Below, in pieces: positions 1-49,267 of a stretch of DNA of 64,000 nt. The notes beneath the pieces were generated by a model. That model searched no databases, was not told where the DNA came from, and was given only the letters and a program-made list of their open reading frames with translations. The stretch is taken from contig JALHQT010000006.1 of NCBI GenBank assembly GCA_022841825.1, positions 371,378-435,377 on the forward strand, read 5' to 3'. Numbering within the stretch: the stretch's first letter is position 1; the number at the start of each line of letters is the position of its first letter. Both the position numbers and the translations under genes were made by a program. The stretch is from Anaerolineae bacterium (GTDB lineage Bacteria; Chloroflexota; Anaerolineae; Aggregatilineales; Phototrophicaceae).

Positions 1-1207
1 CCGCCACTCCACTCCCCATCCACAACGCCATGCCGACCTGCGCGGGCAGGAGGAACTTGAGGTTGTTCTCGCGGAAAAGCCCCTGCGCCAGGAAGACGCC
101 GACCGAGACGGTCACCCAGGCGGCAGGCAGGAACGCCAGTCTGGGAAGCCTCACCAGCCCGAACAGGAGCAGCAGCCACGCTACCGCGAGCAGTTCGTTG
201 CGCGCCGTCACGCCATAGATCAGCCAGTTGAGAATGACGTTCAGCGCCTGTGCCAGTTCGACCGGCTGACCGGTGTTGGGCCAGCCCCGGATCTGGATGA
301 GCGCCGTCGGCAGCCAGGGCACGAAGAGGATGAACGCCAGCGCCTGCGCCCCAATCACCGCCACCAACCTGCTGTAGGGACGAGGCGTGCCTTGTCCGCG
401 GCTGGAATCCCCCCGCACGTCCGCGTTCCACGCAGCGACCATCCACAGCGCCACCACGACCGTCTGCGTCAGCAGCACGTAGAAGTAGGCGTACTGCGTG
501 TACAAACCCGCCGCATTGACGAGACCCAGCGCAAGCGCCAGGCGAAGATGTGGGGCGGACGGCATGAATGCCGTCCCTACAACCCGCAATTTCGTAGGGA
601 CGGCATTCATGCCGTCCCTTCTGGAATTACCCTCCGCGCTCTCCGTGCCCTCGCGGTTCCGCTCGCTAAGCGTCCTCGCGAGCAGCCACAGACTCATTAC
701 GCCCCACAGCGCCAGCAGCGCGTACATGCGCGCTTCCTGCGCGTAGTAGATGCTGAAGCTGTTGAGTGCGACGAACAACGCCGCCGCCAGCGCCCCAACA
801 CTCCCGACGAGCCGCCGTGCCAGCGCCGCCGTGAACGCGACCGTCAGGACACTGGCAAAGGTCGAGAGCAGGCGCAGCGCGTATTCGCTTTCGCCCGCCA
901 GCGCGCGCCAGCCCGCCAGCAGCCAGTAGTAGCCCGGCGGATGAATGTCGCGCCCGGCATGATACGCGATGTCCGTGAACGAGCGTGTCGCCTGCACGTA
1001 GGCATTGCCTTCGTCATTCCACAACGACTGCCCGCCGAGCAGGTGGGCGCGCAGACCGAAGGCTAGAAGAAGGAGAGTGATGAGTAATGCGTAGCGAGTA
1101 ACGAGTGAAAAGTGCGCGGTGCGCGGTGCGTGGTGCGAAAATGCGTGTACCTGTAGGGACGAGGCATGCCTCGTCCGAGAATCCGCGTTGCCCTCGCCTT
1201 CGATCAT
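1..1207 (-). CDS. GT-C fold membrane glycosyltransferase (ArnT/PMT, GT39-like), partial: 3' end lies beyond the left window edge; start codon uncertain
   Basis: The reverse frame (codons 2-4, 5-7 ...) is open from 1207 down to position 1. It is missing from the ORF track only because it has no stop in the window. My own translation reads ...RYALLITLLLLAFGLRAHLLGGQSLWNDEGNAYVQATRSFTDIAYHAGRDIHPPGYYWLLAGWRALAG..., followed by many hydrophobic helices. That is TM1 followed by a D-E loop, as in ArnT/PMT enzymes. The only in-frame ATGs upstream of TM1 are at 1207 and 1255, and both lie inside repeat DNA. Confidence 0.6.
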   Translation of the reverse strand, partial: MIEGEGNADSRTRHASSLQVHAFSHHAPRTAHFSLVTRYALLITLLLLAFGLRAHLLGGQSLWNDEGNAYVQATRSFTDIAYHAGRDIHPPGYYWLLAGWRALAGESEYALRLLSTFASVLTVAFTAALARRLVGSVGALAAALFVALNSFSIYYAQEARMYALLALWGVMSLWLLARTLSERNREGTESAEGNSRRDGMNAVPTKLRVVGTAFMPSAPHLRLALALGLVNAAGLYTQYAYFYVLLTQTVVVALWMVAAWNADVRGDSSRGQGTPRPYSRLVAVIGAQALAFILFVPWLPTALIQIRGWPNTGQPVELAQALNVILNWLIYGVTARNELLAVAWLLLLFGLVRLPRLAFLPAAWVTVSVGVFLAQGLFRENNLKFLLPAQVGMALWMGSGVA

Positions 1208-7693: not shown

Positions 7694-7758
7694 ACCGCGA
7701 AGACGCGAAGGGCGCGAAGAAAACTGTCCGTTCTTCGCGCCCTTCGTGTCTTCGTGGT
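7694..7758. terminator. 28-bp hairpin built from CGAAG heptamer repeats between convergent genes
   Basis: The left arm accgcgaagacgcgaagggcgcgaagaa (7694-7721) pairs with ttcttcgcgcccttcgtgtcttcgtggt (7731-7758). This gives 26 Watson-Crick pairs plus 2 G-U pairs in the plus-sense RNA, and those two positions become C-A mismatches in the minus-sense RNA. The loop is 9 nt. It sits between the RIO stop (7653) and the TIR gene stop (7789). Confidence 0.6.
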
Positions 7759-12059: not shown

Positions 12060-12178
12060 GAGTGATGAGTAACGAGTGACGAGTCATGAGGAAAACGGAG
12101 TGCGTGGCAGTAATGCACGTTCGCACCACGCACTCCGCACACGTCTAGAGACTCGTTACCCGTCACTGGAAATCACTC
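12060..12178. repeat. Composite heptamer-repeat hairpin (GAGTNAN arms plus an inner GGAGTGCGTGG hairpin)
   Basis: gagtgat gagtaac gagtgac gagtcat at 12060-12087. The inner perfect 11-bp stem pairs ggagtgcgtgg (12097-12107) with ccacgcactcc (12126-12136). The imperfect complementary outer arm is gagactcgttacccgtcactggaaatcactc (12148-12178). It lies between the SBP and permease genes. Confidence 0.6.
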
Positions 12179-30795: not shown

Positions 30796-30807
30796 ACGCG
30801 CTTCATC

Positions 30808-31890
30808 CTATGCGCCAAGCAGCACCGGATCACGGTCACGGTATTCGCGGTACGCCTTAATCCAGTCCTTGTCGCATTCGGCGATGAACTGCTCCGCCAT
30901 CTCGACCGGCGCGCGATTGCCGATGAATACGGGTACGCGCTGATGCAGTTGGTGTGGTTGAATATCCAGAATATCGCCCAAGCCATCCGACGCGTAACCC
31001 CCCGCCTGCTGCGCGATGAATGCGAGCGCCTGCGCCTCGAACAACAGACGAAGTTTGCCGTAAGGTTTGTCAGGCACCTTCATGTCGCCGGGATAAAAGA
31101 AGACACCGCCTTCGATCAGGTTGCGATGAAAGTCGGCGATCATCGAGCCAATGTAACGCTGTGAAAGCGGCGTATGTCCCTCGCCATCAATGCCTTGCAG
31201 CCACTTGCAGAAGCGCCGCACCCCAGCCGTCCAGTACTTTTCGTAGCCCTGGTTTGCGCTGTAATAGAGGGGCGGTTCTGGGATGCGAATGTTGGGGTGA
31301 GTGAGGATGAATTCGCCAATACTGGCATCGAGCGTGAATCCGTGAACGCCCTGCCCGGTCGTGTAGATCATCATCGTGCTCGGACCGTAGAACATATAGC
31401 CCGCCGCGACCAGGCTGCGTCCTTTTTGCAGCACATCGGTTAGCGTACCGCGCTCGCCATGCGTGATCTTGCGATGGATGGCGAAGATCGTGCCGACGGC
31501 GACATTCACGTCGATGTTGGACGAGCCGTCGAGCGGATCGTAGAGCAGCACATACTTGCCAGTGCCGAATGAGGTCGGAATATCGATCAGGTCTTCGTGT
31601 TCTTCGGATGCCATCGCGCACAGGCGCTCGGTGTGGTCATTCATCTTGAAGATGATGTCATCGGCGAAAACATCGAGCTTCTTCTGCGTTTCGCCATAGC
31701 TGTTGATGCTTTCGGTTGCCCCCAGGATGTTCACCAGTCCCGCGCGCGTCGTCGCGTCGGCGATGATCTTGCCCGCCAGCGCCATATCATAGAGCAGGCG
31801 TGTCAGTTCACCCGTCGCGCCGGGGTGCTTACGCTCCTGGTCGAGGATATGGCGTTCTATCGTATAGAGGGTTTTGGGCATCGGCAGCAT
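30808..31890 (-). CDS. fbp: Fructose-1,6-bisphosphatase class 1
   Basis: The ATG at 31890 is preceded by GGAGA. Motifs: [39 protein letters not shown]. Confidence 0.9.
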
Positions 31891-31970
31891 GGCAGCGTCT
31901 CCAAGGAACAAAGCAACGTTTGTTTTAGGTTACCCAGACCGCCATACAACATGCTAAAGGATCACGTAAT

Positions 31971-32001
31971 GTGAGGGGCGACCCACGAATCGCCCGCTCA
32001 C
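31971..32001. repeat. REP-like palindromic element (GGGGCG family) between the NTPase gene stop and the fbp start
   Basis: gtgaggggcgacccacgaatcgcccgctcac: about 11 bp of stem with one bulged base. Confidence 0.6.
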
Positions 32002-32015
32002 GGTTCAAGGGCTCC

Positions 32016-34742: not shown

Positions 34743-34758
34743 GGCAATTCTCCATGAT

Positions 34759-34795
34759 CAGTGCTGAGAACTGGGTACTGAGTGCTGAGACTGAA
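34759..34795. repeat. Heptamer tandem array (AGTGCTG / AGNACTG word)
   Basis: c agtgctg agaactg ggtactg agtgctg agactga. It lies in the divergent spacer between the NTPase gene and the sugar kinase gene. Confidence 0.5.
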
Positions 34796-34903
34796 ATCCT
34801 AGTATAGCACAAATGCTCTAAAACCAACTGTAATCTGGCAGATTCTCCACATGAACGGTTACATTATGCCGCGAAATCATCTTCTGCGGAAAAGGACTCT
34901 TGC

Positions 34904-35839
34904 ATGTCGGTCGTAAGCATGGGCGAACTCCTGATCGATTTTGTCGCGCTGGAAAGCGGTGTCACCGTCGGCGAGGCGAGCGGCTTCATCAAAGCGCCGG
35001 GCGGCGCGCCCGCCAATGTCGCGGTCGCCGTCGCGCGGCTGGGCGTGCCTTCGTCCTTCCTGGGGCAGGTCGGCGATGACCCGTTCGGGCATCATCTGGC
35101 GGAGGTGCTGCGGCATGACAACATCGACGTGAGCGGGCTGCGCTTTTCGGCGGAGGCGCGCACCATGCTGGCGTTCGTCTCGCTGCGTGCCGATGGCGAG
35201 CGCAGCTTCAGCTTCTACCGCAACCCCAGCGCCGACATGCTCATGCGACCGGAAGATGTCGCCTATGACGTGATCGACCGCGCGAAGATCTTCCATTATG
35301 GTTCGATCACGCTGATCGACGAGCCGTGCCGCTCCGCCCTGCTCGCCGCCCTGCGCCATGCACGAGACAAAGGGCTGATGATCTCCTACGATCCCAACCT
35401 GCGGCTGTCGCTGTGGCGCAGCGCCGAGGACGCCAAAGCGGGGATGCTCGAAGGCTTGGAGTTCGCCACGATCCTGAAGGTGAGCGAAGAAGAGCTGGAA
35501 TTCCTGACGGGCGGGCAGGACGTGACCCCGCTCTGGCGCGACGCCCTCAGGCTGATCGTCGTCACGCGCGGGTCGGGTGGCTCGTCGGCGTACACGCGCA
35601 CGCACTCGGTCGATGTGCCGGGCTACAGCGTCACGGCGGTGGATACGACGGGCGCGGGCGATGGCTTCGTCGCCGGGCTGCTGGCGGGCATCCTCGAACA
35701 GGGCATTGACGACCCGCCGCTGGAGCAAATGCTGCGCTTCGCCAACGCCGTCGGCGCGATTGCCACGCTGCAAAAAGGGGCGATTCCCGCGCTGCCGACG
35801 CGCGCGGCAGTCGAGACGTTTATGAAGGCACAAGGATAG
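34904..35839 (+). CDS. PfkB-family carbohydrate kinase (fructokinase-like)
   Basis: 311 aa. GGAPANVAVAVARLG, and a C-terminal DTTGAGDGFVAGLL anion hole/catalytic Asp motif. Confidence 0.88.
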   Translation: MSVVSMGELLIDFVALESGVTVGEASGFIKAPGGAPANVAVAVARLGVPSSFLGQVGDDPFGHHLAEVLRHDNIDVSGLRFSAEARTMLAFVSLRADGERSFSFYRNPSADMLMRPEDVAYDVIDRAKIFHYGSITLIDEPCRSALLAALRHARDKGLMISYDPNLRLSLWRSAEDAKAGMLEGLEFATILKVSEEELEFLTGGQDVTPLWRDALRLIVVTRGSGGSSAYTRTHSVDVPGYSVTAVDTTGAGDGFVAGLLAGILEQGIDDPPLEQMLRFANAVGAIATLQKGAIPALPTRAAVETFMKAQG

Positions 35840-35842
35840 ATT

Positions 35843-36097
35843 ATGGCAAAACTGAAACTCGACCTGCACGCGATCTACAACGACAGCGCGAAGATCGACC
35901 GCGAGTTGGAGCGCATCATCAACGAGGCGGTCGAAAAGAAGATCGAGCTGGTCGAGATCATCCCCGGCAAGGGCAGCGGGCAGCTCAAGAAGAAGGTGCT
36001 GCGCTTCCTCAACCAGCCGCACGTCAAAAAGGTCTTCCATCGCATCGAGAAGGACGACAAGAACTTCGGGCGCATCTTCGTCCACTTCCGCTTCTAA
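35843..36097 (+). CDS. Stand-alone Smr (small MutS-related) domain protein
   Basis: 84 aa. LKLDLHA and IIPGKGSGQLKKKV correspond to the LDLHG and HGxG motifs of Smr domains. The gap after the kinase gene is 3 nt. Confidence 0.65.
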   Translation: MAKLKLDLHAIYNDSAKIDRELERIINEAVEKKIELVEIIPGKGSGQLKKKVLRFLNQPHVKKVFHRIEKDDKNFGRIFVHFRF

Positions 36098-36108
36098 CAT
36101 TGGCGTCC

Positions 36109-36152
36109 CTGGCGTCATGGCGGCTGAACGTATTGAACCGCCATGACGCCAG
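36109..36152. terminator. Perfect 15-bp hairpin between convergent genes
   Basis: ctggcgtcatggcgg (36109-36123) pairs with ccgccatgacgccag (36138-36152), with a 14-nt loop. It uses the same word family as 27575-27636. Confidence 0.6.
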
Positions 36153-36176
36153 AATCACCAGGGATAAACCGCTCGC

Positions 36177-37232
36177 CTAAGAAATCTGGACAGGGGCATC
36201 GCTGAGAGCGCCATCCCGTCCCGCGACCAGCAGCAAACTTATCAACAACCCGACCATGCCCGCCAGGAAGACCGCGCCCGACCAGACGTGAATGCTCCAC
36301 GTCACGCGCGCCGCAGCTTCGATGGTGACGAAGTAGAGCGCGTAGTAGACCGCAGGCACGGCATACGCAAATACGCGAAATGCGTTCGGGCGTGCCAGTG
36401 ACGGGCGCAGTGACAACACCAGCACATCGGCGATCAACCCCGCGACCAGCGCGCCGGGGATGAGCAGAAAAAAGTCGTTGAGAATTGTCATCAGCAGCGC
36501 ATGAAGCCCGAACATCACGGTAAACGCGCCGAACGGCAGCTTCCAGCGCGAGACGAGCAGCAGAGACGCGCCCGCCAGCAGCGCCGCCTGCCACAGCACC
36601 GCGATCACGCCCAAATCCTGCGTCTCGCCGCGCCCAAAGCTCGCCGCCTGCACCTGAAGCATCGGGTTGGCGTAGCTGGTGAAGAACGCCGCCAGCGCAA
36701 AGACCATCGTCACCGCCAGGATCGAAGGACCCAGTTCGCGCCATCCGCGCCCGCCCGTCCGTGCCCACGCCGCCCGCAGCGGACCCGTGAAGACCAGCGC
36801 CATCCCGATGGCGAGCATGATGTGCGTCGGACTGGTGAGTGCTTCGCTCCCATCTTCAATACCGAACAGCGTATGCCAGATCATGTCACCCAATCCGCCG
36901 ACGGCGAACAGCGCCACGCCCAGCAGCGACAGCCAGTATCCAACAGGCAGCGCCTGCGTGAAGGCGTGTCCCTTCTGCACATTGCGCCACTGATGCCAGC
37001 CCGTAAACAACGCGACCAGACCAAACGCGCTGTAAAAGAGGAAGTGCCAGGGCGTGAAGAAGCTGTCGTCAACCAACCCGTGAAAGTGCGCCCAGCCATC
37101 CACCCACAAGCCCGCGATGAAGATCCCAGACAGAATGATAAACGCCCAGTCGAACCCCAGTCCGCCAGCAGGATGCCCCGAAATCCGTCGGACAGCCGCC
37201 GTCTGCCCGCCCGTCTGTGTCATCGTCGCCAT
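36177..37232 (-). CDS. Polytopic membrane protein of unknown function
   Basis: 351 aa with about 9-10 hydrophobic helices. His/Trp-rich loops (WVDGWAHFHGLVDDSFFTPWHF, GDMIWHTLFGIEDGSE). GC3-rich. Confidence 0.6.
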   Translation of the reverse strand: MATMTQTGGQTAAVRRISGHPAGGLGFDWAFIILSGIFIAGLWVDGWAHFHGLVDDSFFTPWHFLFYSAFGLVALFTGWHQWRNVQKGHAFTQALPVGYWLSLLGVALFAVGGLGDMIWHTLFGIEDGSEALTSPTHIMLAIGMALVFTGPLRAAWARTGGRGWRELGPSILAVTMVFALAAFFTSYANPMLQVQAASFGRGETQDLGVIAVLWQAALLAGASLLLVSRWKLPFGAFTVMFGLHALLMTILNDFFLLIPGALVAGLIADVLVLSLRPSLARPNAFRVFAYAVPAVYYALYFVTIEAAARVTWSIHVWSGAVFLAGMVGLLISLLLVAGRDGALSDAPVQIS

Positions 37233-37495
37233 ACTTCCCCCATCATGAACATCAAGTCATCAATATAACGGACACGCACTGTATACGCGAAAGAGCAGAC
37301 GAATGTTGCGATTGCTCAGAAAGACAACATCTGCTCAATATATCTTCTCTTGGCGCCCTTTGCGTGATGGCGGTTCAGTCCAATCAACCGCTATGACGCC
37401 ATGAACGCCAGGCATACGTTACCCGATATAATTGGCATTCGTGGGCGGTTTGCGGTTCAATTGCCCAGCATTTCTATCTGGACTTCCTTAAGTTT

Positions 37496-38785
37496 ATGCC
37501 GTCTGTCCCAAAACCCGACCAGGCGACCGCCAACCATGCGCTGCGCCTGATGCTCCGTGAGCGCAGCATCATGAGCGCGCTCGTCGCCTTCCACAGAGGA
37601 ACAGGCGATGTCTTTCGCCTGTCACTTCCCGGCTTTTCACCCATCATCGTCGCCAGCCCCGATGCCAACCGTTTCGTGCTGGTGACCGCCAAAGACAATT
37701 TCGCCTGGCGTACCGAAGGCGATCCGGTCGCGCAGCTTCTGGGGCATGGGATGCTGGTCGAAGATGGCGCCGTTCACGATGACGCCCGCGCGCTGGCGAA
37801 CCCGCTGCTGCACAAGCGCGCGATCGGCGGCTATCTGGCGACCATGTCCGCGCTGACCGACCGCGCGATTGCCGGATGGGCGGACGAAGCGGTGCTCGAC
37901 ATGGCGGTCGAGATGCGCAGGATCACGCTGAACATCGTCATGAAGACGCTGTTCGAGGTCGATTTCGCGCCGGAAATCGCGCGCCTGTGGAATCCGCTGC
38001 TGCGGCTGCTGCGCTTCATTTCGCCGGGCTGGTGGATGGTCTTGCCGGGTATCCCGCAGCCCGGTGTCGCCCGCGCCCGCGCCCTGTTCGATGAATATCT
38101 CTACCGCATCATCCGCGCCCGCCGCGAGATGCCGCAGGGAGAAGACCTGCTCGGCGTCCTCGTCCGTACGCCTGGCTTGCGCGACGAGCAGGTGCGCGAC
38201 CAGGTCATGACGATGATCGTCGCCGGACACGACACCATCGCCGCGCTGCTGTCGTGGGCGGTCTATGTCCTCAGCCAGCGGCAGGACATCCAGGCGCAGG
38301 CGCGCGACGAAGTGCGCGCCGTCCTGGGCGACGCCGCACCGGACATGGCAGCCCTGGGCAAACTGACGTATCTCGGCTGCGTGGTTGATGAGACGCTGCG
38401 CCTGTACCCGCCCGCGCACCTCGGCAACCGCCGCGTAGTCGAGCCAACCAACTTCAACGGCTACGCCTTCGAGGCGGGCGAGCGGCTCGGCTATTCAATT
38501 TACCTCTCCCATCGGCATCCGGAGTTCTGGGACGCGCCGGAAGACTTCAAACCGGAGCGCTTTCTCGAAAGCCACGAGGCGTTCAGCTTCGTGCCGTTTG
38601 GCGGCGGCGAACGCACCTGCATCGGCATGAATTACGCGCTCTACGAGGCGAAAGTCGTCCTTGCGCGGCTGCTGCAGAAAGTCGATCTGCTGCCCGTGCC
38701 CGGCGCGGTCCGCCAATCGATGATGGTCACGCTCCAGCCAAAGGCGCGCGGCGGCGGGGCGTTCGTACGGGTACAGTGTCGGTGA
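37496..38785 (+). CDS. Cytochrome P450
   Basis: 429 aa. I-helix VAGHDT, ExxR (DETLRL), heme loop FGGGERTCIGMNYA. Confidence 0.9.
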   Translation: MPSVPKPDQATANHALRLMLRERSIMSALVAFHRGTGDVFRLSLPGFSPIIVASPDANRFVLVTAKDNFAWRTEGDPVAQLLGHGMLVEDGAVHDDARALANPLLHKRAIGGYLATMSALTDRAIAGWADEAVLDMAVEMRRITLNIVMKTLFEVDFAPEIARLWNPLLRLLRFISPGWWMVLPGIPQPGVARARALFDEYLYRIIRARREMPQGEDLLGVLVRTPGLRDEQVRDQVMTMIVAGHDTIAALLSWAVYVLSQRQDIQAQARDEVRAVLGDAAPDMAALGKLTYLGCVVDETLRLYPPAHLGNRRVVEPTNFNGYAFEAGERLGYSIYLSHRHPEFWDAPEDFKPERFLESHEAFSFVPFGGGERTCIGMNYALYEAKVVLARLLQKVDLLPVPGAVRQSMMVTLQPKARGGGAFVRVQCR

Positions 38786-38817
38786 ACCCTGCGTGGATGC
38801 ATATGCTCGAAAGGTAT

Positions 38818-38925
38818 GTGCGAGGTGCGCAGTGCGAGGTGCGAAAAAGCATTTCTCGGGCGGGCTGAATGCCGCCTCGACACACCGGTCGTGTTTGTTC
38901 GCACTGCGCACTTCGCACCTCGCAC
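38818..38925. repeat. Heptamer-repeat hairpin: 4 x GTGCGNN, ~52-nt spacer, 4 x NNCGCAC (likely bidirectional terminator)
   Basis: gtgcgag gtgcgca gtgcgag gtgcgaa (38818-38845) and ttcgcac tgcgcac ttcgcac ctcgcac (38898-38925). The arms are complementary apart from about 3 mismatches. It lies between the P450 stop (38785) and the rimI stop (38927). Confidence 0.6.
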
Positions 38926-38926
38926 T

Positions 38927-39535
38927 CTAATTTCGCGGTCTCTCTGCCAGCGTGTAATGGTCGCTGTGCGGAATGCGCTGACGCAGGGCGCTGTGACGCT
39001 CATGGAACGCGCGGACGACGGATGCATCTTTGAATTCCAGCCGCATGTCATAGGCGTCTTCGCCGTTGTTGTGGTAGTAACCCTTTTTCGTATCGACAAT
39101 CCTGAAGCCGTACTTGTGGTAGAGGTTCTGCGCCGTAACGTTGCTGACGCGCACCTCCAGCACCACATACGCCGCCTGATAGTGGAGGGCTTTCGCGACC
39201 ATCGCCGCCAATACCACCTCGCCCAGCCCGCGCCCACGATAGGACGGATGAGTGGCGATGGTGCTGATGTGTGCCTCGTCCACGATATTCCACAAGCCGC
39301 CATATGCCAGGATACGATGCACAGCCGTTGGGCGCGTGCCAAACCAGCGCTGCCAGACCGGCAGCCTGGACGAGTTCTCGACCTGCTCCAGCACGATCAT
39401 GTGGCTGTACTGCGACTCGCGGATTTCGTAATCATACGAACGCGCCGTCCAGGGTGGATTGAATGACTGCTGGTCAATTGAGACGACCTGCGCAATATCC
39501 GAGGTGCGCATATAGCGCAGATTGAGCGAGGTCAT
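38927..39535 (-). CDS. rimI: Ribosomal-protein-alanine N-acetyltransferase (GNAT)
   Basis: 202 aa. SYRGRGLGEVVL acetyl-CoA motif. It is the last gene of the tsaE-tsaB-rimI arrangement. Confidence 0.7.
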   Translation of the reverse strand: MTSLNLRYMRTSDIAQVVSIDQQSFNPPWTARSYDYEIRESQYSHMIVLEQVENSSRLPVWQRWFGTRPTAVHRILAYGGLWNIVDEAHISTIATHPSYRGRGLGEVVLAAMVAKALHYQAAYVVLEVRVSNVTAQNLYHKYGFRIVDTKKGYYHNNGEDAYDMRLEFKDASVVRAFHERHSALRQRIPHSDHYTLAERPRN

Positions 39536-39538
39536 CGT

Positions 39539-40216
39539 TCAGGGCAGGTCTTTCGTTTTGATGTAGGCAGGAACCAACCGCGCCGCCGGGAAATCCGTCT
39601 CGTGACCGCGCAGGCGCGTCCACGCTTCCTCCGCCATAAACCCGGCACGTCGCAGGCGATGGGCAGCAGACGCTATCGTCACCGGGACGCCCTCCCCCTG
39701 AGCCGCGATCAGCGCGGCGTGTCCGTCGTGGTCAATCTCGCCAGTAATCGTCGCGGGACCATCAATCGTGGCGATCAGCGTATCCCACGTCATCAGCAGC
39801 GGCTCGTTGCGCGCCTTCCAGCGCCCCTTACGCCATTGGTACGCCCCGGCGATCACGCGCCCGCGCCCCGCCTGGATGACCGTGACCAATCCGCCCGGCA
39901 CCTGCGGATGACCATAAGCGAGGATGTCGAGCGACGCGACGCCGACCAGTGGCAGCTTGCGCGCGGACGCGATCCCTTTCGCCAGCGCGACGCCGATGCG
40001 CAAGCCTGTGTAAGAGCCAGGACCGCTGCAAACCGCCAGTGCGGTCAGATCAGGCACGCCCACGCCGCAGCGCCCCAACAGGTGCTGGATCGACGGCGCG
40101 AGTTCCGTCGCGTGGCTGTTGCCGGGGGAGCGCCATGCTTCTTCGCCCACAAGCGCGTGTCCATCATGCAGCGCCAGCGTAGAGATGTTCGTTGCAGTAT
40201 CGATAGCAAGCAGCAT
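39539..40216 (-). CDS. tsaB: tRNA t6A37 threonylcarbamoyl transfer protein TsaB
   Basis: 225 aa. MLLAIDTATN...GPGSYTGLRIGVA. Confidence 0.85.
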   Translation of the reverse strand: MLLAIDTATNISTLALHDGHALVGEEAWRSPGNSHATELAPSIQHLLGRCGVGVPDLTALAVCSGPGSYTGLRIGVALAKGIASARKLPLVGVASLDILAYGHPQVPGGLVTVIQAGRGRVIAGAYQWRKGRWKARNEPLLMTWDTLIATIDGPATITGEIDHDGHAALIAAQGEGVPVTIASAAHRLRRAGFMAEEAWTRLRGHETDFPAARLVPAYIKTKDLP

Positions 40217-40244
40217 TTCGGATCACTTTTGCCGTCGAACGGCG

Positions 40245-40790
40245 TTATGGCTTTAAGCTTTTGTCTTTGCTGCCCAATGCAGCCGCACGAAACAGTCCGA
40301 TCAGCGTTTGATAGCGCTTCCCCGCGCCTTCCAGCACGATGCTGCGGCGCGTTGTCTCCACGATGCGGATGTCTATCCACAAACGTTCGGTAGGCAGCGC
40401 TTCCTTGATATGCTCGGGCCACTCGAAGATGGAGATGGTCGCACCGTTTAGAATGTCGTCCAACCCGATGGTCTCGGCTTCCAGCACATCTGACAGGCGG
40501 TAGCAATCCAGATGGAAGAGCTTGACCGTATCTTTCTTGCGGCGATGCACATGCACGAGGTTGTAGGTCGGGCTGGTCAGCGGCGGCTCTGCGCCCCAAC
40601 CTTTACCAACGCCACTGGCAAACATGGTCTTGCCCGCGCCCATGTCGCCCGACAAACAGATAACATCGCCAACCTCCAGCAGCGCGCCAAGACGCATGCC
40701 AAGACGCGCGGTCTGCTGCGGGTTATAGCTGATGATATCGAGTTGGTCGTCACGAATTATGGTCACGGCGCACCCTTCGTGCGGAAACAT
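40245..40790 (-). CDS. tsaE: tRNA t6A37 ATPase TsaE
   Basis: Starts at the internal ATG 40790 (MFPHEGCAV...). LSGDMGAGKTMFASGVGKGWG and SPTYNLVHV motifs. The upstream 49 codons of the track ORF are probably not translated. Confidence 0.8.
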   Translation of the reverse strand: MFPHEGCAVTIIRDDQLDIISYNPQQTARLGMRLGALLEVGDVICLSGDMGAGKTMFASGVGKGWGAEPPLTSPTYNLVHVHRRKKDTVKLFHLDCYRLSDVLEAETIGLDDILNGATISIFEWPEHIKEALPTERLWIDIRIVETTRRSIVLEGAGKRYQTLIGLFRAAALGSKDKSLKP

Positions 40791-40927
40791 CCTGATGATT
40801 ATAGCCTGATGTGCCAGTGTTGGAAGTCCACAGAGAGTCCCGATCATTAAACCCTTAATGCGCCGTAACACCGTCTTGACTTTAGAATCACATAAGGTTT
40901 CATCACCAGTGGATTGAGGCGGGTAGG

Positions 40928-42766
40928 ATGCCTTCATTTTTACAACGCAAACTCAGTGAACAAGCACAGCGCGAAGCCGCCTTGCATGCGTCAGCAGCGG
41001 ACCGCGAAGCCGACTCGTTTGAGCTGGAGGAGCCGTCGTTCGACGACGACCCGCCCTTTGACGATGTTCCTTCTCCCAGCCACTTCGCCGTGACCGCCCC
41101 GATAGGCGGCGGCGTATCCGCCGACGACTTCTACAACCCCGCCGACGATCCGGACGCGGGCAATCCCTATGCTGCTTATCCCCCACCAGCGCCAGAGTCC
41201 GCTGGAGATGCGTCGAAACGCGATGCTGCCCATCGCAGCGATGTGCCGGAGACGCGCATGAGCGAACCGGAAGCCCGTGGCAGCGGCTTCGCAGAAACAC
41301 CGACCGCGCCCGCCCCACCCCCTACAGTCACGACGACAAACGGCAAACACAACGGCAGCGGCAAATCGGCTGCGCAAGAGTTCGCGCCGGCTCCCGTGTC
41401 GTCCAAAAAGCGCAATGTGCCCGATGATGGAAAGCGGCGGCTGCCCTCAAAACTGTCGGCGCTGCGCAAGGTACTGCGTGGCAAAGTCCTGCGTCACCCG
41501 GACGAAGCCGATAGCTGGGAGCGCGGCGAAGCAGACCGCGAGCATCTGATCGTGGATCGACTGCGTCGCATCTTTGAGCAGATGTCGAAGGAGAATACGG
41601 GGCTGCGCCTTTCGGATGACGAATTCGAGCAGTTGAGCGAGGCAATCCTGGATGATGTCCTCGGTTTTGGCGCGATAGACTCGCTCGTGCGCGACCGTTC
41701 CTGCGCCGAGATCATGGTCAACGGACCCGACACCATCTATGCCGAACACAAGGGCAAGCTAACCGAGACCGACCTGGTCTACGACGACGAAGAGCATGTG
41801 CTGTGGACAGCGCAGCGTATCATTCGCCCGCTCCAGCGCACGCTCGACCGCCAGCATCCGATGGTCGATGCGCGTCTGCCGGATGGCTCGCGCGTACACA
41901 TCGTCTCACAGCCTTCCGCGCTGAATGGCACGACCATCACCATCCGCAAGTTCCCGGAGAAGCGCCTGACGATTCAAGATCTGGTCAGCTTTGGGTCGAT
42001 CACCAAAGATGTCGCCGATTTCCTGGAAGCCTGCGTCATTTCGCGCCTGAACTGCGTCGTCAGCGGCGGCACCGGCAGCGGTAAGACGACCCTGCTCAAC
42101 ATCCTGAGCAGCTTCATCCCGGACAGCGAACGCATCCTCACCATCGAAGACGCTGCGGAACTGCAACTCAACCAGCGGCATGTTGTCCGTCTGGAAACCG
42201 CTCCGCCCGTCCCGAACGGCGACGGCAAGATCGGCTCGCTCTCGATCCGCGAACTGGTGCGAGGCTCCCTGCGCATGCGCCCCGACCGCATCGTCGTCGG
42301 CGAATGCCGAGGGGGTGAAGCGCTCGATATGCTCCAGGCAATGAACACCGGGCACGATGGCTCGCTGACGACCGTCCACAGCAACAACCCGCGCGATTGC
42401 GTCGGGCGACTGGAAACCCTGTGCCTGATGGCGGGCATGGATCTGCCGCTCAATGTCGTCCGCCGTCAGATCGTCAGCGCGGTCGATCTCATCATCCAGC
42501 AGGCGCGCCTGCGCGATGGCAGCCGCAAAGTCGTGCAGATCTCGGAGATTCAGGGCATGGAAGGCGAACAAGTCATCATCCAGGATGTCTTCGTCTACCG
42601 CACACCGGGCTTCACCGGGCAGGGTTATTCACACGAAGGCGGCGGCAAGCTGGAGCCGACTGGCTTCCGTCCCAAGTTCGTGGATCGCTTTGAGCAGTAC
42701 GGCATTAAGTTGCCGGGGCGCATCTTCGGTGCAGGCGGAAACAACTTCAACAAGAACGGCAGTTAG
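40928..42766 (+). CDS. CpaF/TadA-family type II/IV secretion ATPase with a ~230-aa disordered acidic/Pro-rich N-terminal extension
   Basis: 612 aa. Walker A VSGGTGSGKTTLLNIL, Asp box ILTIEDAAEL, Walker B RPDRIVVGECRGGEA, His box GHDGSLTTVHSN. Confidence 0.88.
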   Translation: MPSFLQRKLSEQAQREAALHASAADREADSFELEEPSFDDDPPFDDVPSPSHFAVTAPIGGGVSADDFYNPADDPDAGNPYAAYPPPAPESAGDASKRDAAHRSDVPETRMSEPEARGSGFAETPTAPAPPPTVTTTNGKHNGSGKSAAQEFAPAPVSSKKRNVPDDGKRRLPSKLSALRKVLRGKVLRHPDEADSWERGEADREHLIVDRLRRIFEQMSKENTGLRLSDDEFEQLSEAILDDVLGFGAIDSLVRDRSCAEIMVNGPDTIYAEHKGKLTETDLVYDDEEHVLWTAQRIIRPLQRTLDRQHPMVDARLPDGSRVHIVSQPSALNGTTITIRKFPEKRLTIQDLVSFGSITKDVADFLEACVISRLNCVVSGGTGSGKTTLLNILSSFIPDSERILTIEDAAELQLNQRHVVRLETAPPVPNGDGKIGSLSIRELVRGSLRMRPDRIVVGECRGGEALDMLQAMNTGHDGSLTTVHSNNPRDCVGRLETLCLMAGMDLPLNVVRRQIVSAVDLIIQQARLRDGSRKVVQISEIQGMEGEQVIIQDVFVYRTPGFTGQGYSHEGGGKLEPTGFRPKFVDRFEQYGIKLPGRIFGAGGNNFNKNGS

Positions 42767-42770
42767 CAGG

Positions 42771-42800
42771 ACGGGGGCAAATGCCCCCGTTTTCTATTTC
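42771..42800 (+). terminator. Intrinsic terminator after the CpaF-like gene
   Basis: acgggggc aaat gcccccgt: an 8-bp GC stem with a 4-nt loop, followed by tttctatttc. Confidence 0.7.
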
Positions 42801-43549
42801 GGGTAATCGACCGCCAATTCCATGCCCGCCAGCGCCGCGCCGACGATGCCCGCGTCATTAAACATCTGCGCCGGGACAATCGGCGTGCGGATGGACAGGA
42901 ACGGGATGAACTTCTCGTGGTTCTTGCTCGCGCCGCCGCCGACGATGATCAGGTCGGGCCAGAACAGCCGCTCGACCACAACCAGATACTCATCCAGCCG
43001 TTTCGCCCAATCCTTCCACGACAGGTCTTTCTTGACGCGCGCGCGGTCGCTGGCGCGCAGCTCGGCGTCTTTGCCGCGCACTTCCAGGTGTCCCAGCTCG
43101 GTATTCGGCACCAGCTTGCCATCCACAAACAGCGCAGTGCCAATGCCTGTGCCGAGCGTGATCATCATCACCAGCCCTTTTACCTCGCGCCCCGCCCCAA
43201 AGCGGATCTCGGCAAGCCCGGCGGCGTCGGCATCATTCACGATGCTGGTCTTACACTGCGTCGCATGTTCGATCAGCGTCTTGGCGTCCAGGTTGATCCA
43301 CCCTTCATCCACGTTCGCCGCCGTCAGCGTCACGCCATTCTTGACCACGCCGGGGTAGCCGCAGCCAATGCGGGCATCCCAATGGAAGTGTTTGGCGATC
43401 TCGGCGATACAGTCCGCACATGCCTTTGGCGTCGAAGGATCGGGGGTGATCAGTCGGAGACGCTCGGCGAGGAGCTGCCCCGTCTCAATGTCAACAGGCG
43501 CGCCCTTGATGCCGCTGCCACCAATGTCGATGCCTAAAACCTGCGTCAT
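42794..43549 (-). CDS. ppgK: Polyphosphate/ATP glucokinase (ROK family)
   Basis: 251 aa. [61 protein letters not shown]. Confidence 0.88.
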
Positions 43550-43602
43550 AATTTCGCCTCCTACAATAACAACAGAATCGCATAACGCATTGCTCTATTT
43601 TT

Positions 43603-43690
43603 AACACGAAGGCACGAAGAAAACGAAGGAACACGAAGGATTTGAGCAGATTTTCTCCGTGCACCTCCGTTACCTTCGTCACTTCGTGTT
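43603..43690. repeat. Imperfect hairpin built from ACGAAGG heptamer/octamer repeats
   Basis: aacacgaaggcacgaagaaaacgaaggaacacgaagga (43603-43640) faces tccgtgcacctccgttaccttcgtcacttcgtgtt (43656-43690). Confidence 0.5.
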
Positions 43691-43745
43691 TCAATTTTCT
43701 TCACGCGCATTGCACGTTACAATGACAATCTGCCTACTCGACATC

Positions 43746-44675
43746 ATGAACAGAAAGCGTCGCGCGCTCATGCAGTACCTCCCGTTCGACAAACCGGGTC
43801 GCTTTTATCGCGGCAATCTGCATACACACTCAACACGTTCCGATGGGCGCAAATCGCCCGACGAGGTCTGCCGTTTCTACCGTGAAATGGGTTACCACTT
43901 CCTCTCGATTACCGACCACTTCCTCGATCAGTATGGCTATCCGATCACCGATACCAGCCTGTGCTGGGACGATAACTTCATCACCATCCTGGGTGCGGAA
44001 CTGCACGCGGGCAAGACCGAGATCGGCGAAATGTGGCACATCCTCGCCAATGGTCTGCCGAGCGATTTCGCCCGCCCGCTGCCGGGAGAAACAGGACCCG
44101 AGATCGCCAAACGCGCGCTCGATGCCGGGGCGTTCGTCACCGCCGCCCATCCCGCCTGGTACGACCTGGGCGAGGCGGACATCCTCTCGCTCGGTCCCGT
44201 CCACGCCATCGAGATCGTCAATGGTATCTCCGCCGACCACAACGACCGACTCTACTCATGGCACATCGTGGATCGATTGGCGGCGCTCGGACATCGCTAC
44301 AGCGCGCTCGCGACGGACGATGCCCATTTTCACGACCGCCATCAGGACTTGCTGCGCGGTTGGGTGTGGGTCAAGGCGCAAGAGCTGACGCCGCAGGCGA
44401 TCCTCGATGCGCTCAAGGCGGGCGACACCTACAACAGCACGGGTCCACAGTTTTTCGATGTCCAGATCATTCCCGGCGACAAAGTCCATGTGCGCTGCTC
44501 GCCTGCCCAGCAGATCATGGTCACCGGCAAGGGACCCGAAGCGCACACGCTGCACGGCAATGGCTTGATCGAGGGCGAGATTTCGCTCAAGCGCTGGCGC
44601 AGCCCCTACTGCCGCGTCACCATCCGCGACCGTCACGGCGAACTCGCCTGGACGAACATCATCTGGTTTGATTAG
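43746..44675 (+). CDS. PHP-domain (polymerase/histidinol phosphatase-like) metal-dependent phosphoesterase
   Basis: GNLHTHSTRSDG near the N-terminus and later AAHPAWY and DDAHF. The start is ATG 43746 or 43770. Confidence 0.7.
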   Translation: MNRKRRALMQYLPFDKPGRFYRGNLHTHSTRSDGRKSPDEVCRFYREMGYHFLSITDHFLDQYGYPITDTSLCWDDNFITILGAELHAGKTEIGEMWHILANGLPSDFARPLPGETGPEIAKRALDAGAFVTAAHPAWYDLGEADILSLGPVHAIEIVNGISADHNDRLYSWHIVDRLAALGHRYSALATDDAHFHDRHQDLLRGWVWVKAQELTPQAILDALKAGDTYNSTGPQFFDVQIIPGDKVHVRCSPAQQIMVTGKGPEAHTLHGNGLIEGEISLKRWRSPYCRVTIRDRHGELAWTNIIWFD

Positions 44676-44677
44676 CC

Positions 44678-44777
44678 GTGCGAAGTGTGTACGTGCATTA
44701 CATGAGCGACAGGCGGGGTTTGTTTTTTCGCACTACGCACCTCGCACGTCGCACCACGCACCATGCACCACGCACCC
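44678..44777. repeat. Heptamer array: 7 x CGCACNN preceded by a short complementary GTGCG block
   Basis: gtgcgaagtgtgtacgtgca (44678-44697) ... cgcacta cgcacct cgcacgt cgcacca cgcacca tgcacca cgcaccc (44729-44777). Confidence 0.6.
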
Positions 44778-44806
44778 GCAGCAGTATTGAGAATGGACTC
44801 AACGCA

Positions 44807-45970: not shown

Positions 45971-45975
45971 GGACG

Positions 45976-48164: not shown

Positions 48165-48250
48165 TTGTCAGTCTGCACTTTCAACTTTTGACGGCTCGCC
48201 TACAATTGGCAGAATTGTGCGCGATGTGAAAAGACTCAAATGAGCTTTTT

Positions 48251-48278
48251 CGTACTGCGCACCACGCACTTCGCACGG
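48251..48278. repeat. Heptamer array 4 x CG(C/T)ACNN
   Basis: cgtactg cgcacca cgcactt cgcacgg, preceded by ttttt. Confidence 0.5.
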
Positions 48279-49197: not shown

Positions 49198-49212
49198 CCG
49201 CGATGACACGAT

Positions 49213-49267
49213 GAACGCGAAGATTAATCAGATCTTCTTCGCGTTCTTCGCGCCTTCGCGGTTTCGC
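49213..49267. repeat. CGAAG/TTCGCG heptamer hairpin at the 5' end of the next gene
   Basis: gaacgcgaagat taatca gatcttcttcgcgttc ttcgcgccttcgcggtttc. Confidence 0.45.

What the first reader, a model, noticed from the sequence alone, without database searches (positions are those of the whole stretch)
38818..38925. Pervasive intergenic hairpins whose arms are tandem degenerate heptamers (word-specific 7-nt stutter repeats)
**Seen.** At least eleven spacers contain 3-7 tandem 7-mers, each locus using one word:
- GTGCGNN/NNCGCAC at 1112-1139, 38818-38845 with 38898-38925, 44678-44697 with 44729-44777, and 48251-48278.
- GAGTNAN at 1075-1109, and at 12060-12087 with the complementary 12148-12178.
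- CGAAG-type at 7694-7758, 43603-43690 and 49213-49267.
- AGTGCTG at 34759-34795.
- TGATC-type at 46011-46112.

A block is usually followed, after 10-50 nt, by a block of the complementary word, giving 25-30 bp imperfect stems. Most sit at gene 3' ends or between convergent genes. They generate spurious N-terminal extensions in the ORF track (for example HHAPRTRSS and FAPRTLISRS).

**Inference.** They may act as bidirectional terminators or mRNA stabilisers. The strict 7-nt periodicity and locus-specific words suggest slippage-driven growth or a dedicated binding factor. I do not know a described family with this architecture.
Basis: partly seen in the sequence, partly recalled or inferred. 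Interest (0 to 1): 0.65.

Follow-up and report, generated by a model that had tools for sequence, protein, structure and literature searches.

The report
Heptamer-repeat hairpins between genes
The spacers between genes of this uncultured Chloroflexota (Anaerolineae) bacterium hold short tandem 7-letter repeats, often as mirror-image pairs that fold into long hairpins; this is a new example of a kind of repeat already described in cyanobacteria and Xanthomonas, and its function is still unproven.

Summary
**Observation: real, but overstated.**
- Six spacers hold degenerate tandem heptamers. All seven arrays lie in the 10% of the window that is non-coding; about 0.1 would be expected there by chance.
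- GTGCGNN x3 occurs 14 times at 6 loci, against 0.03 expected.
- Three "CGAAG" loci have periods of 8-10, not 7.
- The "TGATC" locus is a conserved GATC-rich regulatory region, not a stutter repeat.
- Five loci fold into strong 25-40 bp hairpins (z -6 to -11, one -3.9), two fold weakly, and two arrays have no partner.
- Three of the ten loci lie between divergent gene starts, not at 3' ends.

**What it is.** These are heptanucleotide long simple-sequence repeats. They resemble cyanobacterial STRRs and the Xanthomonas (GGGANTN)n inverted pairs, here in an Anaerolineae genome with several words.

**Comparison with relatives.**
- An 87%-identical relative has hairpins at the same two junctions, built from unrelated words.
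- Relatives at 85% and 82% identity have no spacer there.
- The elements are therefore labile and dispensable.

**A rule seen across phyla.** The purine-rich arm is almost always the 5' arm (11 to 0 in an unbiased sample).

**Best reading.** Slippage makes the arrays and inverted duplication makes the second arm. The resulting stem-loops probably act as terminators without a U-tract, or as protectors of RNA 3' ends. No RNA data exist to test this.

**Novelty.** New member of a known kind.

The parts
38818..38845 (+). 5' arm of the focal hairpin: GTGCGAG GTGCGCA GTGCGAG GTGCGAA. It starts 33 nt after the TGA stop of the cytochrome P450 gene (37496-38785).
   Evidence: P450 assignment
38846..38897 (.). 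52-nt loop of the focal hairpin. It begins A-rich (AAAGC) and ends T-rich (TTTGTT), and holds a small inner GC hairpin (GGGCGG...CCGCC).
38898..38925 (+). 3' arm of the focal hairpin: TTCGCAC TGCGCAC TTCGCAC CTCGCAC. It ends 1 nt before the stop codon of the convergent rimI-like acetyltransferase gene (38927-39535, minus strand). It is complementary to the 5' arm at 25 of 28 positions.
   Evidence: whole hairpin -67.5 kcal/mol, z -6.9
1075..1111 (+). Direct array of the word AGTRAYG (GAGTGAT GAGTAAT GCGTAGC GAGTAAC GAGTGAA AA) with no complementary partner. It lies between two minus-strand genes.
   Evidence: (z +0.2)
1112..1139 (+). Direct array GTGCGCG GTGCGCG GTGCGTG GTGCGAA, immediately after the AGTRAYG array. 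Together they form a composite of two words.
12060..12178 (+). Nested hairpin 13 nt after the stop of an ABC-transporter substrate-binding protein gene (10536-12047). The outer arms are AGTRAYG-type (12060-12090 and 12151-12178). The inner stem is a perfect 11 bp, GGAGTGCGTGG / CCACGCACTCC (12097-12107 and 12126-12136), with CGCAC-type heptamers at 12120-12140.
   Evidence: (z -6.5)
44678..44775 (+). Weak hairpin 3 nt after the stop of a 318-aa gene. A short GTGCG-like left block (44678-44697) faces a 7-unit NNCGCAC array (44727-44775). It lies inside what looks like a two-gene operon.
   Evidence: (z -2.1)
48217..48276 (+). Small hairpin (GTGCGCGATGTGAAAAG / CTTTTTCGTACTGCGCAC) that runs on into a 4-unit NNCGCAC array (48249-48276). 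It lies between divergent genes, 40 nt upstream of the 48316 start.
   Evidence: (z -1.5)
34760..34796 (+). Direct array GTGCTGA GAACTGG GTACTGA GTGCTGA GACTGAA with no partner. It lies between divergent genes, starting 18 nt upstream of the start of the DUF87 ATPase gene (32016-34742, minus strand).
   Evidence: (z +0.6)
7695..7757 (+). Near-perfect hairpin with 27-nt arms between convergent genes (RIO kinase 6619-7653 and TIR protein 7789-10230). The arms are CGCGAAG words at periods of 8-9. They agree at 25 of 27 positions, irregular spacers included.
   Evidence: (z -11.1)
43603..43690 (+). Hairpin with ACGAAGG-type arms (periods 8-10) between the divergent ROK gene and the 318-aa gene. 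Relative L121 has only the left arm.
   Evidence: (z -6.1)
49206..49267 (+). Hairpin plus CTTCGCG-type repeats (periods 8-9), 9-16 nt after the stop of a xylose-isomerase-like TIM-barrel gene (48316-49197). It is read through by a spurious N-terminal ORF extension.
   Evidence: (z -3.9)

Best explanation
**What it is.** These are degenerate long simple-sequence repeats with units of 7 nt (some of 8-10 nt). They are the same kind of element as cyanobacterial STRRs and the Xanthomonas (GGGANTN)n arrays. The host here is an uncultured Anaerolineae (Chloroflexota) chromosome.

**Proposed mechanism**
1. Replication slippage creates and homogenises short tandem arrays. They persist only in non-coding DNA, because a 7-nt unit would shift the reading frame. 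*Inferred.*
2. An array is copied in inverted orientation next to itself, by intrastrand template switching or inverted duplication. The second arm reproduces even the irregular spacing of the first. *The pattern is shown; the mechanism is inferred.*
3. The result is a long imperfect palindrome that fills the space after a stop codon. On either strand it is transcribed into a 25-40 bp stem-loop with a purine-rich 5' arm and a pyrimidine-rich 3' arm.
4. Such stem-loops most likely act as stops for transcription that need no U-tract, or as protectors of RNA 3' ends. The polarity fits this: a pyrimidine-rich nascent 3' arm forms a weak RNA:DNA hybrid that the hairpin can displace. *Inferred from general knowledge of hybrid stability.*
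5. Arrays without a partner, and arrays in promoter or 5'-UTR spacers, are raw material or by-products of the same process.

The elements turn over quickly and are individually dispensable.
For: **Real and non-coding**
- Period-7 arrays occur only in intergenic DNA, 7 against about 0.1 expected. Word enrichment is strong.

**Hairpins**
- Fold z-scores run from -3.9 to -11.1 at five loci.
- Arms agree at 25/28, 25/27 and 11/11 positions, irregular spacers included. This is the signature of an inverted copy, not of two independent arrays.

**Gain or loss of one arm**
- L121 keeps a homologous left CGAAG array, 85% identical over 82 nt. It lacks the roughly 80-nt stretch that holds the extra unit, the loop and the right arm.

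**Turnover**
- At the P450/rimI and 318aa/aminotransferase junctions, the window and L121 (87% aa identity) both have heptamer-arm hairpins. The words are unrelated and no sequence homology remains.
- L206 (85%) has a 5-nt spacer at the P450/rimI junction. L123 (82%) has overlapping genes there and a 20-nt spacer at the second junction.
- L123 has no period-7 array in 21 kb of synteny.

**Generality**
- In unbiased samples, period-7 arrays outnumber periods 4, 5, 8, 10 and 11: 31 against 7-16 in 841 kb, and 116 against 20-42 in 1.27 Mb. They are concentrated in a few genomes.
- Elsewhere the same cores occur as perfect arrays of up to 15 units, as slippage predicts.

**Polarity**
- The purine-rich arm comes first in 11 pairs against 0 (3 neutral) in the unbiased set, p about 0.001. 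In the seeded set the ratio is about 26 to 4. By inspection of the arm sequences it is 7 of 7 in the window and 2 of 2 in L121.

**Context**
- Six loci start 3-41 nt after a stop codon.
- Other 3' ends in the window carry ordinary GC-rich hairpins, also without T-runs.
- More distant relatives carry ordinary hairpins at the substrate-binding-protein junction.

**Literature**
-.
Against: - No transcript data exist, so no 3' end has been mapped.
- There is no U-tract, and canonical terminators are not enriched.
- Two junctions carry no hairpin at all in close relatives, so any function there is not essential.
- One hairpin (44678-44775) sits inside a probable operon. Three loci sit in divergent promoter regions, where a terminator role makes no sense.
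- Pure local slippage does not explain three things. The same few words recur at many loci: GTGCG at 6, CGAAG at 3, AGTRAYG at 2 plus L121. All six GTGCG arrays end with the unit GTGCGAA on the loop side. A 100-140-nt element appears where relatives have a 0-5-nt spacer.
- L121 and L122 are the same species in two samples and show no difference in unit number.
- Some lineages prefer period 8. The number 7 is therefore not universal.
Confidence: 0.6

Rival explanations
1. The arrays are binding sites for a lineage-specific nucleic-acid-binding factor, a protein that reads DNA or RNA with a roughly 7-nt footprint. That factor selects and maintains a small vocabulary of words.
For: - The vocabulary is limited and recurs: GTGCGNN at 6 loci, CGAAG at 3, and AGTRAYG at 2 loci plus the L121 hairpin.
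- All six GTGCG arrays end with GTGCGAA followed by an A-rich run.
- The usual array length is 4 units, as in Xanthomonas and Geobacter, although these words cannot form G-quadruplexes.
- Arrays are present in the window and L121 lineages and absent in L123 and L206. A factor gained or lost would give this pattern.
- Similar words (GAGTGAT, GTGATGG, CGTGAAA) turn up in unrelated phyla.
Against: - Orthologous junctions use unrelated words.
- At least four different words occur within 64 kb.
- Arrays occur in every context and on both strands.
- Units are degenerate at 2 of 7 positions.
- No candidate protein was found next to them.
Confidence: 0.15
2. The hairpins are small non-autonomous mobile elements (MITE-like or REP/REPIN-like) that insert between stop codons. 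The heptamer repeats are part of the element.
For: - Presence or absence at orthologous junctions: a 100-140-nt element in two genomes where two others have a spacer of 0-5 nt at one junction and one other has a 20-nt spacer at the second.
- The composite order AGTRAYG array, then GAAAA, then GTGCG array recurs at 1075-1139 and at 12060-12140.
- Metagenome contigs match only the arrays and have unrelated flanks.
Against: - Loops share no sequence, and the termini are not conserved.
- No target-site duplication is visible at the filled sites compared with the empty ones.
- No two copies can be aligned outside the repeated words.
- No transposase or RAYT-like gene was found among the ten window proteins scanned.
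- Elsewhere the arrays are perfect microsatellites of variable length.
Confidence: 0.1
3. The arrays and palindromes are neutral mutational debris with no function at all. They are tolerated only where they do no harm.
For: - Relatives do without them.
- Arms are degenerate, and some arrays have no partner.
- Their distribution across lineages is patchy.
- They are strictly excluded from coding DNA.
Against: - The strong polarity rule, purine-rich arm first at 11 to 0, is not expected from neutral inverted duplication.
- The architecture is kept at two junctions while the sequence has been entirely replaced.
- Six loci sit tightly against stop codons.
Confidence: 0.15

Closest known systems
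Xanthomonas G-rich heptamer repeats (GGGAATC / (GGGANTN)n), Rehm et al. 2015, PMC4692102
   Same: - Degenerate tandem heptamers with fixed and variable positions.
- 89-93% are intergenic, and most lie 0-50 nt from the stop codon of the upstream ORF.
- The commonest array has 4 units.
- There are 70-75 convergent inverted pairs able to form stem-loops.
- Between sister species the type (single or inverted) is kept, while length and sequence vary.
- The polarity is the same: the G-rich arm comes first.
   Different: - Xanthomonas uses one dominant word per genome, and that word can form G-quadruplexes. This window uses at least four words (GTGCGNN, AGTRAYG, CGAAG-type, GTGCTGA), none with the G-runs a quadruplex needs.
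- Here orthologous sites in a relative carry different words.
- The host phylum is different.
Cyanobacterial STRR (short tandemly repeated repetitive) sequences
   Same: They are 7-bp tandem units in intergenic DNA that can form hairpins, for example between hupS and hupL. Their function is unknown; transcript stability and translational coupling have been proposed (PMC2670836).
   Different: - They are described in filamentous cyanobacteria, with other words.
- The host here is Anaerolineae.
- Paired inverted arrays are more prominent here. In Nostoc, only a few paired repeats were reported for the G-rich class.
Heptanucleotide long simple-sequence repeats (LSSR), Mrazek et al. 2007
   Same: - Among 5-11-nt units, heptanucleotide repeats are the most abundant class in most repeat-rich genomes.
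- They favour large, GC-rich, non-pathogen genomes.
- Units that are not multiples of 3 stay out of genes.
- Polymerase slippage is the proposed cause (summaries in PMC4679880 and PMC4692102).
   Different: As summarised in the papers read here, that survey counted tandem arrays. It did not describe the hairpin architecture, the polarity of the arms, or the replacement of words at orthologous sites. The original paper could not be read.
TAACTGA direct repeats of marine Beggiatoaceae (PMC4679880) and the Geobacter metallireducens 4x/5x heptanucleotide elements (PMC2700814)
   Same: - Intergenic sets of 2-6 heptamers, dispersed over 16-169 loci per genome, with no established function.
- The window's 34760-34796 array (GTGCTGA / GTACTGA) shares the NNNCTGA form. 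It lies just upstream of a start codon.
   Different: - Those elements are almost all direct repeats of a single word. The BOGUAY genome has one indirect repeat.
- They lie mostly upstream of start codons.
- In this window most arrays are inverted pairs that follow stop codons.
REP/BIME elements and bidirectional intrinsic terminators of proteobacteria
   Same: They work alike in outline. Both are extragenic palindromes at 3' ends or between convergent genes, and as stem-loops they can stop transcription or protect mRNA (own knowledge).
   Different: - These hairpins share no genome-wide consensus sequence.
- They have no U-tract.
- Their arms are internally repetitive.

Membership tests
Heptanucleotide long simple-sequence repeats (LSSR) | Head-to-tail tandem copies of a 5-11-nt unit, longer than chance allows | tested here: met
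   TRF reports 3.7-7.6 copies at 72-94% matches. There are 7 period-7 regions against 1.1 in shuffles, and 14 word matches against 0.03 expected.
Heptanucleotide long simple-sequence repeats (LSSR) | Units that are not multiples of 3 are confined to non-coding DNA | tested here: met
   All 7 regions are intergenic although only 10% of the window is non-coding. Arrays of periods 3, 6, 9, 12 and 15 are all in coding DNA.
Heptanucleotide long simple-sequence repeats (LSSR) | Copy number varies between strains (slippage polymorphism) | tested here: inconclusive
   L121 and L122 (same protein, two samples) have identical hairpins. Metagenome contigs were too sparse, and they break at the arrays. 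Between species, arrays differ in presence and in word.
Xanthomonas-type heptamer inverted repeat pairs (Rehm 2015) | Two arrays of the same word in convergent orientation close together | tested here: met
   Pairs at 38818/38898, 12060/12151, 7695/7731 and 43603/43655, and more weakly at 44678/44727 and 48217/48245.
Xanthomonas-type heptamer inverted repeat pairs (Rehm 2015) | G-tracts that allow G-quadruplex formation | tested here: not met
   The words GTGCGNN, AGTRAYG and CGAAG have no runs of three or more G.
Cyanobacterial STRR | 7-bp tandem repeats in filamentous cyanobacteria | tested here: not met
   The unit length matches, but the host is Anaerolineae. GatB is 75% identical to an Anaerolineae MAG and 69% to Aggregatilineales. 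The words differ.
Intrinsic (Rho-independent) terminator | GC-rich stem-loop directly followed by a U-tract | tested here: not met
   Stems are present, but no T-run follows them. The scan of 30001-50000 finds 16 candidates against 16.1 expected, and none lies at these loci.
Intrinsic (Rho-independent) terminator | Transcript 3' ends map to the element | not testable with these tools
   No RNA run holds this sequence.
REP / BIME / REPIN | One conserved palindromic consensus repeated genome-wide, with an associated RAYT transposase | tested here: not met
   Copies share only the short words. Loops and flanks cannot be aligned. No transposase was found among the scanned window proteins. The rest of the genome was not available.
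MITE | Terminal inverted repeats with target-site duplication, and full-length alignable copies | tested here: not met
   Comparison of filled and empty sites shows no duplication. There are no alignable full-length copies.
CRISPR array | Identical repeats of 25-50 nt separated by unique spacers of similar size | tested here: not met
   Units are 7-10 nt and directly adjacent.
Known RNA families (Rfam) | Match to a curated covariance model | tested here: not met
   The whole window gives no hit at the gathering thresholds.

The most novel reading that the evidence does not exclude
Heptamer-arm hairpins may be a widespread, convergently built class of bidirectional transcription stops or 3'-end caps that need no U-tract. 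They would occur in Chloroflexota, Acidobacteriota, Planctomycetota, xanthomonads and others.

In this reading, slippage supplies the stem material and selection enforces a fixed polarity, with the purine-rich arm 5' and the pyrimidine-rich arm 3'. The architecture then persists at a junction while its sequence is wholly replaced.

Alternatively, a lineage-specific factor may write or read a small vocabulary of heptamers.
Probability: 0.2. Interest if true: 0.65.

Novelty: new member of a known kind. Interest (0 to 1): 0.4.

Why it matters
- **An old open question.** Heptanucleotide repeats are the commonest long microsatellite class in many bacterial genomes. They have had no accepted function or origin since they were first described. 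A 2015 paper states that no detailed literature on them was then available (PMC4692102), and a search of papers from 2016 on found no dedicated study.
- **What this window adds.** It shows the phenomenon in Anaerolineae. It also gives three testable observations:
  1. The architecture is kept at orthologous junctions while the word is replaced.
  2. The purine-rich arm is almost always the 5' arm, in several phyla.
  3. The usual four-unit length holds for words that cannot form G-quadruplexes, which weakens the quadruplex explanation.
- **Practical consequences.** These elements create spurious ORF extensions and break assemblies. Annotation pipelines for metagenome-assembled genomes should mask them.

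Tried and rejected
- **Global lag-7 autocorrelation** of all intergenic DNA gave only z 1.1. I replaced it with a local window test.
- **Exact look-up of the window's P450** found nothing on record.
- **L001** (Chloroflexota MAG, 73% identity) is not syntenic and has no arrays.
- **Sequencing runs.** Only low-coverage metagenomes hold the sequence, and no RNA runs do. Laying their contigs showed assembly breaks at the arrays and unrelated loci that match only the arrays. No usable polymorphism came out.
- **Metagenome scan with the substrate-binding protein** returned relatives no closer than 65-68% identity, too distant for spacer comparison. They show ordinary hairpins at that junction, and one (L129) shows another heptamer-arm hairpin.
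It says nothing about 7 against 8, and it revealed many octamer arrays, many of them in Longimicrobium.
- **Conserved end motif.** The GTGCGAA terminal unit is particular to this window and is not general.
- **Rfam** gave no match for the window or for the 45950-46260 region.
- **Canonical terminator scan** showed no enrichment.
- **Mrazek 2007** could not be read, so it is cited only through two papers that summarise it.
- **Rejected readings:** coding N-terminal extensions, G-quadruplex, CRISPR, and chance.
Full report
**1. The sequence and its host**

The window is a 61% GC bacterial chromosome segment with ordinary housekeeping genes, including gatB, tsaB, tsaE, rimI, priA, a P450 and an ABC transporter.
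- GatB is 75% identical to an Anaerolineae MAG and 69% identical to an Aggregatilineales MAG.
- P450 relatives are named Chloroflexota or Anaerolineae.
- The host is therefore an uncultured member of Chloroflexota, class Anaerolineae.
- There are no tRNA genes and no Rfam matches.

At the given coordinates the sequence reads GTGCGAG GTGCGCA GTGCGAG GTGCGAA, then 52 nt, then TTCGCAC TGCGCAC TTCGCAC CTCGCAC.

I built a rough gene map from codon usage and tested for local tandem structure, using 21 comparisons and requiring at least 15 matches.
- Period 7 gives seven regions, every one in the 10% of the window that is non-coding.
- Shuffles give 1.1 regions for the whole window.
- All other periods from 2 to 15 give 0-2 intergenic regions. 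Periods 3, 6, 9, 12 and 15 are found only in genes.
- GTGCGNN x3 with at most one mismatch occurs 14 times at six loci, against 0.03 expected.
- CGAAG x3 with variable gaps occurs five times at three loci, against 0.01 expected.

The phenomenon is therefore far beyond chance.

**3. Corrections to the description**
- The CGAAG loci (7695-7757, 43603-43690, 49206-49267) have periods of 8-10, not 7.
- The "TGATC-type" locus is not a stutter repeat. Its spacer (45971-46241) is 81% identical to that of a relative whose proteins are about 82% identical. The core (about 46038-46118) is nearly invariant and shows a compensatory change in its hairpin.
- Two loci combine two words. An AGTRAYG array is followed by GAAAA and then a GTGCG-type element, at 1075-1139 and at 12060-12140.

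| Locus | Fold z-score |
|---|---|
| 7690-7762 | -11.1 |
| 38813-38930 | -6.9 |
| 12053-12182 | -6.5 |
| 43600-43693 | -6.1 |
| 49206-49266 | -3.9 |
| 44676-44782 | -2.1 |
| 48215-48282 | -1.5 |
| 1070-1145 | +0.2 (no partner) |
| 34750-34800 | +0.6 (no partner) |

Gene context:
- two loci lie between convergent genes;
- three follow a stop codon closely (3-16 nt) in head-to-tail gene pairs;
- one (1075-1139) lies 116 nt downstream of a gene;
- three lie between divergent starts.

**4. Anatomy**
- *The arms are true inverted copies.* They agree at 25/28 positions (38818), 25/27 (7695, irregular 8-9-nt spacing included), 28/37 (43603) and 11/11 (inner stem at 12097).
- *A shared end.* All six GTGCG arrays end on the loop side with the unit GTGCGAA (once GTACGAA), and in four of the six an A-rich run follows.
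- *Array length.* Four of the six GTGCG arrays have four units.
- *No U-tract.* None of the hairpins is followed by a T-run, and canonical terminators are not enriched (16 against 16.1 expected).
- *Other 3' ends look similar.* They carry ordinary GC-rich hairpins, also without T-runs.

**5. Comparison with relatives**

The comparison uses syntenic contigs L121 (P450 87% identical), L206 (85%) and L123 (82%, 21 kb of synteny).

| Junction | Window | L121 (87%) | L206 (85%) | L123 (82%) |
|---|---|---|---|---|
| P450 / rimI | GTGCGNN hairpin | hairpin of GTGATGR / CCTCATCAC heptamers | 5-nt spacer | genes overlap by 4 nt |
| 318-aa gene / aminotransferase | GTGCG/CGCAC hairpin | hairpin of GAAAGTN / CACTTTN heptamers | not covered | 20-nt spacer |

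- The window and L121 spacers at these two junctions share no detectable homology. Local alignment scores are at or below the shuffle means.
- By contrast, the divergent ROK spacer is 85% identical over 82 nt.
- In that ROK spacer L121 has the left CGAAG array only. The window has about 80 extra nt that hold one more unit, the loop and the complementary arm.
- L123 has no period-7 array at all in 21 kb. L121 has two in 10.5 kb.
- L121 and L122 are the same species from two samples, and their hairpins are identical.
- The L121 word GTGATGR belongs to the AGTRAYG family seen at two other loci in the window. Related genomes therefore share a vocabulary but not the placement of words.

**6. How general is it?**
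Hits came from Streptomyces, Micromonospora, Chloroflexota, Gemmatimonadota, Acidobacteriota, Planctomycetota, Verrucomicrobiota and others.
- Most of those arrays are perfect microsatellites of up to 15 units, without a partner.
- The same loci hold 129 further period-7 arrays of other words, against 24-55 such arrays for each of periods 4, 5, 8, 10 and 11.
- In two samples not chosen for repeats, period-7 arrays again dominate the periods that are not multiples of 3: 31 against 7-16 in 841 kb, and 116 against 20-42 in 1.27 Mb.
- They are concentrated in a few genomes: Ardenticatenaceae 12 per 21 kb, Pyrinomonadaceae 11 and 8, and Anaerolineae 7 and 7. The nearest GatB relatives of the window have 0-1.
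- Many of these arrays are adjacent inverted pairs. One substrate-binding-protein homologue (L129) has a heptamer-arm hairpin directly after its stop codon, as the window does.
The collection scans therefore cannot rank 7 against 8, and some lineages favour octamers.

**7. A polarity rule**

A palindrome reads the same way on both strands, so the order "purine-rich arm first" is an intrinsic property of the element.
- In the unbiased loci, 11 inverted pairs are purine-first, none is pyrimidine-first and 3 are neutral (p about 0.001).
- In the seeded loci the ratio is about 26 to 4.
- By inspection of the arm sequences, the window gives 7 of 7 and L121 gives 2 of 2.
- The Xanthomonas pairs are described as convergent G-rich arrays, which is the same polarity.

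**8. What is already known**
- Mrazek et al. 2007 found heptanucleotide units to be the most abundant long simple-sequence repeats in most repeat-rich genomes and proposed polymerase slippage (summarised in PMC4679880 and PMC4692102).
- Cyanobacterial STRRs are 7-bp repeats that form hairpins, for example between hupS and hupL. Their function is unknown (PMC2670836).
- Xanthomonas has about 185 (GGGANTN)n arrays. They are mostly of four units, 89-93% intergenic, and mostly within 50 nt of a stop codon. They include 70-75 convergent inverted pairs. The type is conserved between species while length and sequence vary (PMC4692102).
- Beggiatoaceae have 169 TAACTGA sets (PMC4679880).
- Geobacter has families of four or five tandem heptanucleotides (PMC2700814).
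- A search from 2016 onward found no later dedicated study.

It remains unexplained.

**9. Interpretation**

*Shown:*
- the arrays are non-coding tandem repeats;
- the second arm is an inverted copy of the first;
- elements appear, disappear and change word among close relatives;
- the polarity is biased.

*Inferred:*
- Slippage makes the arrays. This fits their exclusion from genes and the perfect arrays seen elsewhere.
- Template switching or inverted duplication makes the partner arm.
- The stem-loops serve as stops for transcription that need no U-tract, or as protectors of RNA 3' ends.

The polarity fits the last point. From general knowledge, RNA:DNA hybrids with a pyrimidine-rich RNA strand are the least stable. 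A hairpin whose 3' arm is pyrimidine-rich can therefore displace the hybrid most easily, in both directions of transcription.

*Points against a necessary function:*
- relatives lack the hairpins;
- one hairpin lies inside an operon;
- three loci lie in promoter regions;
- no transcript data exist.

*Left unexplained by slippage alone:*
- the recurring vocabulary;
- the constant GTGCGAA end;
- the appearance of a 100-140-nt element where relatives have almost no spacer.

These points keep two rival explanations alive: a binding factor and a mobile element.

**10. Verdict**

This is a real feature, described with some overreach. It is a new member, in a new phylum and with several words, of the known class of heptameric repeats. 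Interest is moderate.

Noticed in passing
window 45971-46241 (core about 46038-46118); L123 20877-21170: The spacer upstream of 46242-47318 is conserved in the 82% relative: 81% identity overall and nearly invariant in the core. That gene has no Pfam domain and a signal-peptide-like N-terminus. The spacer holds about nine GATC sites and two TTATCCCAA(A) boxes (45976-45996). It also holds a hairpin, CCATGATCAC...GTGATCGTG (46071-46098), with a compensatory change in L123. No Rfam family matches. It is a candidate cis-regulatory site or leader RNA.
   Followed up: partly
window 2947-5588: Low-GC island (48-53% GC against 61%) holding ORF 3504-5534. The ORF combines a NERD nuclease domain with a UvrD/REP superfamily-1 helicase. 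It is probably horizontally acquired and looks like a defence gene.
   Followed up: partly
window 7789-10230 (minus strand): An 813-aa protein with two TIR_2 domains and a RecG-C-like HATPase_c_4 domain, plus a sub-threshold DUF4062 match. It looks like an anti-phage or NADase-type defence protein. It converges on a RIO1 kinase gene (6619-7653).
   Followed up: no
window 1112-1139, 12120-12140, 38818-38845, 38898-38925, 44727-44775, 48249-48276: All six GTGCGNN arrays end on the loop side with the unit GTGCGAA (once GTACGAA), and in four of the six an A-rich run follows. GTGCGNN arrays in other phyla do not share this end. It points to polar growth of the arrays or to a constraint particular to this genome.
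   Followed up: partly
L003-L120, L126-L287 (for example L214, L261, L275, L044, L004): In inverted heptamer-array pairs across several phyla, the purine-rich arm is almost always the 5' arm (11 to 0 in unbiased loci). Words such as GAGTGAT, GTGATGG, CGTGAAA and NNNCTGA recur in unrelated phyla.
   Followed up: partly
L288-L366 (for example L292, L337, L344): Octamer arrays (GTGCGNNN x4 or more) are very common in Longimicrobium (Gemmatimonadota) and in actinomycetes. The preferred repeat period therefore differs between lineages.
   Followed up: no
L027, L066, L088, L094, L120; run X4, contig ending at window 38821: Contigs in public assemblies often end inside or at the edge of heptamer arrays. 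These repeats break short-read assemblies.
   Followed up: no
window 29215-30795 and 36177-37232: Two genes present in the window are absent from the otherwise syntenic relative L123. L123 instead carries a glycoside-hydrolase gene between the T2SSE-family ATPase gene and the ROK gene. These are small gene gains and losses in a conserved neighbourhood.
   Followed up: no
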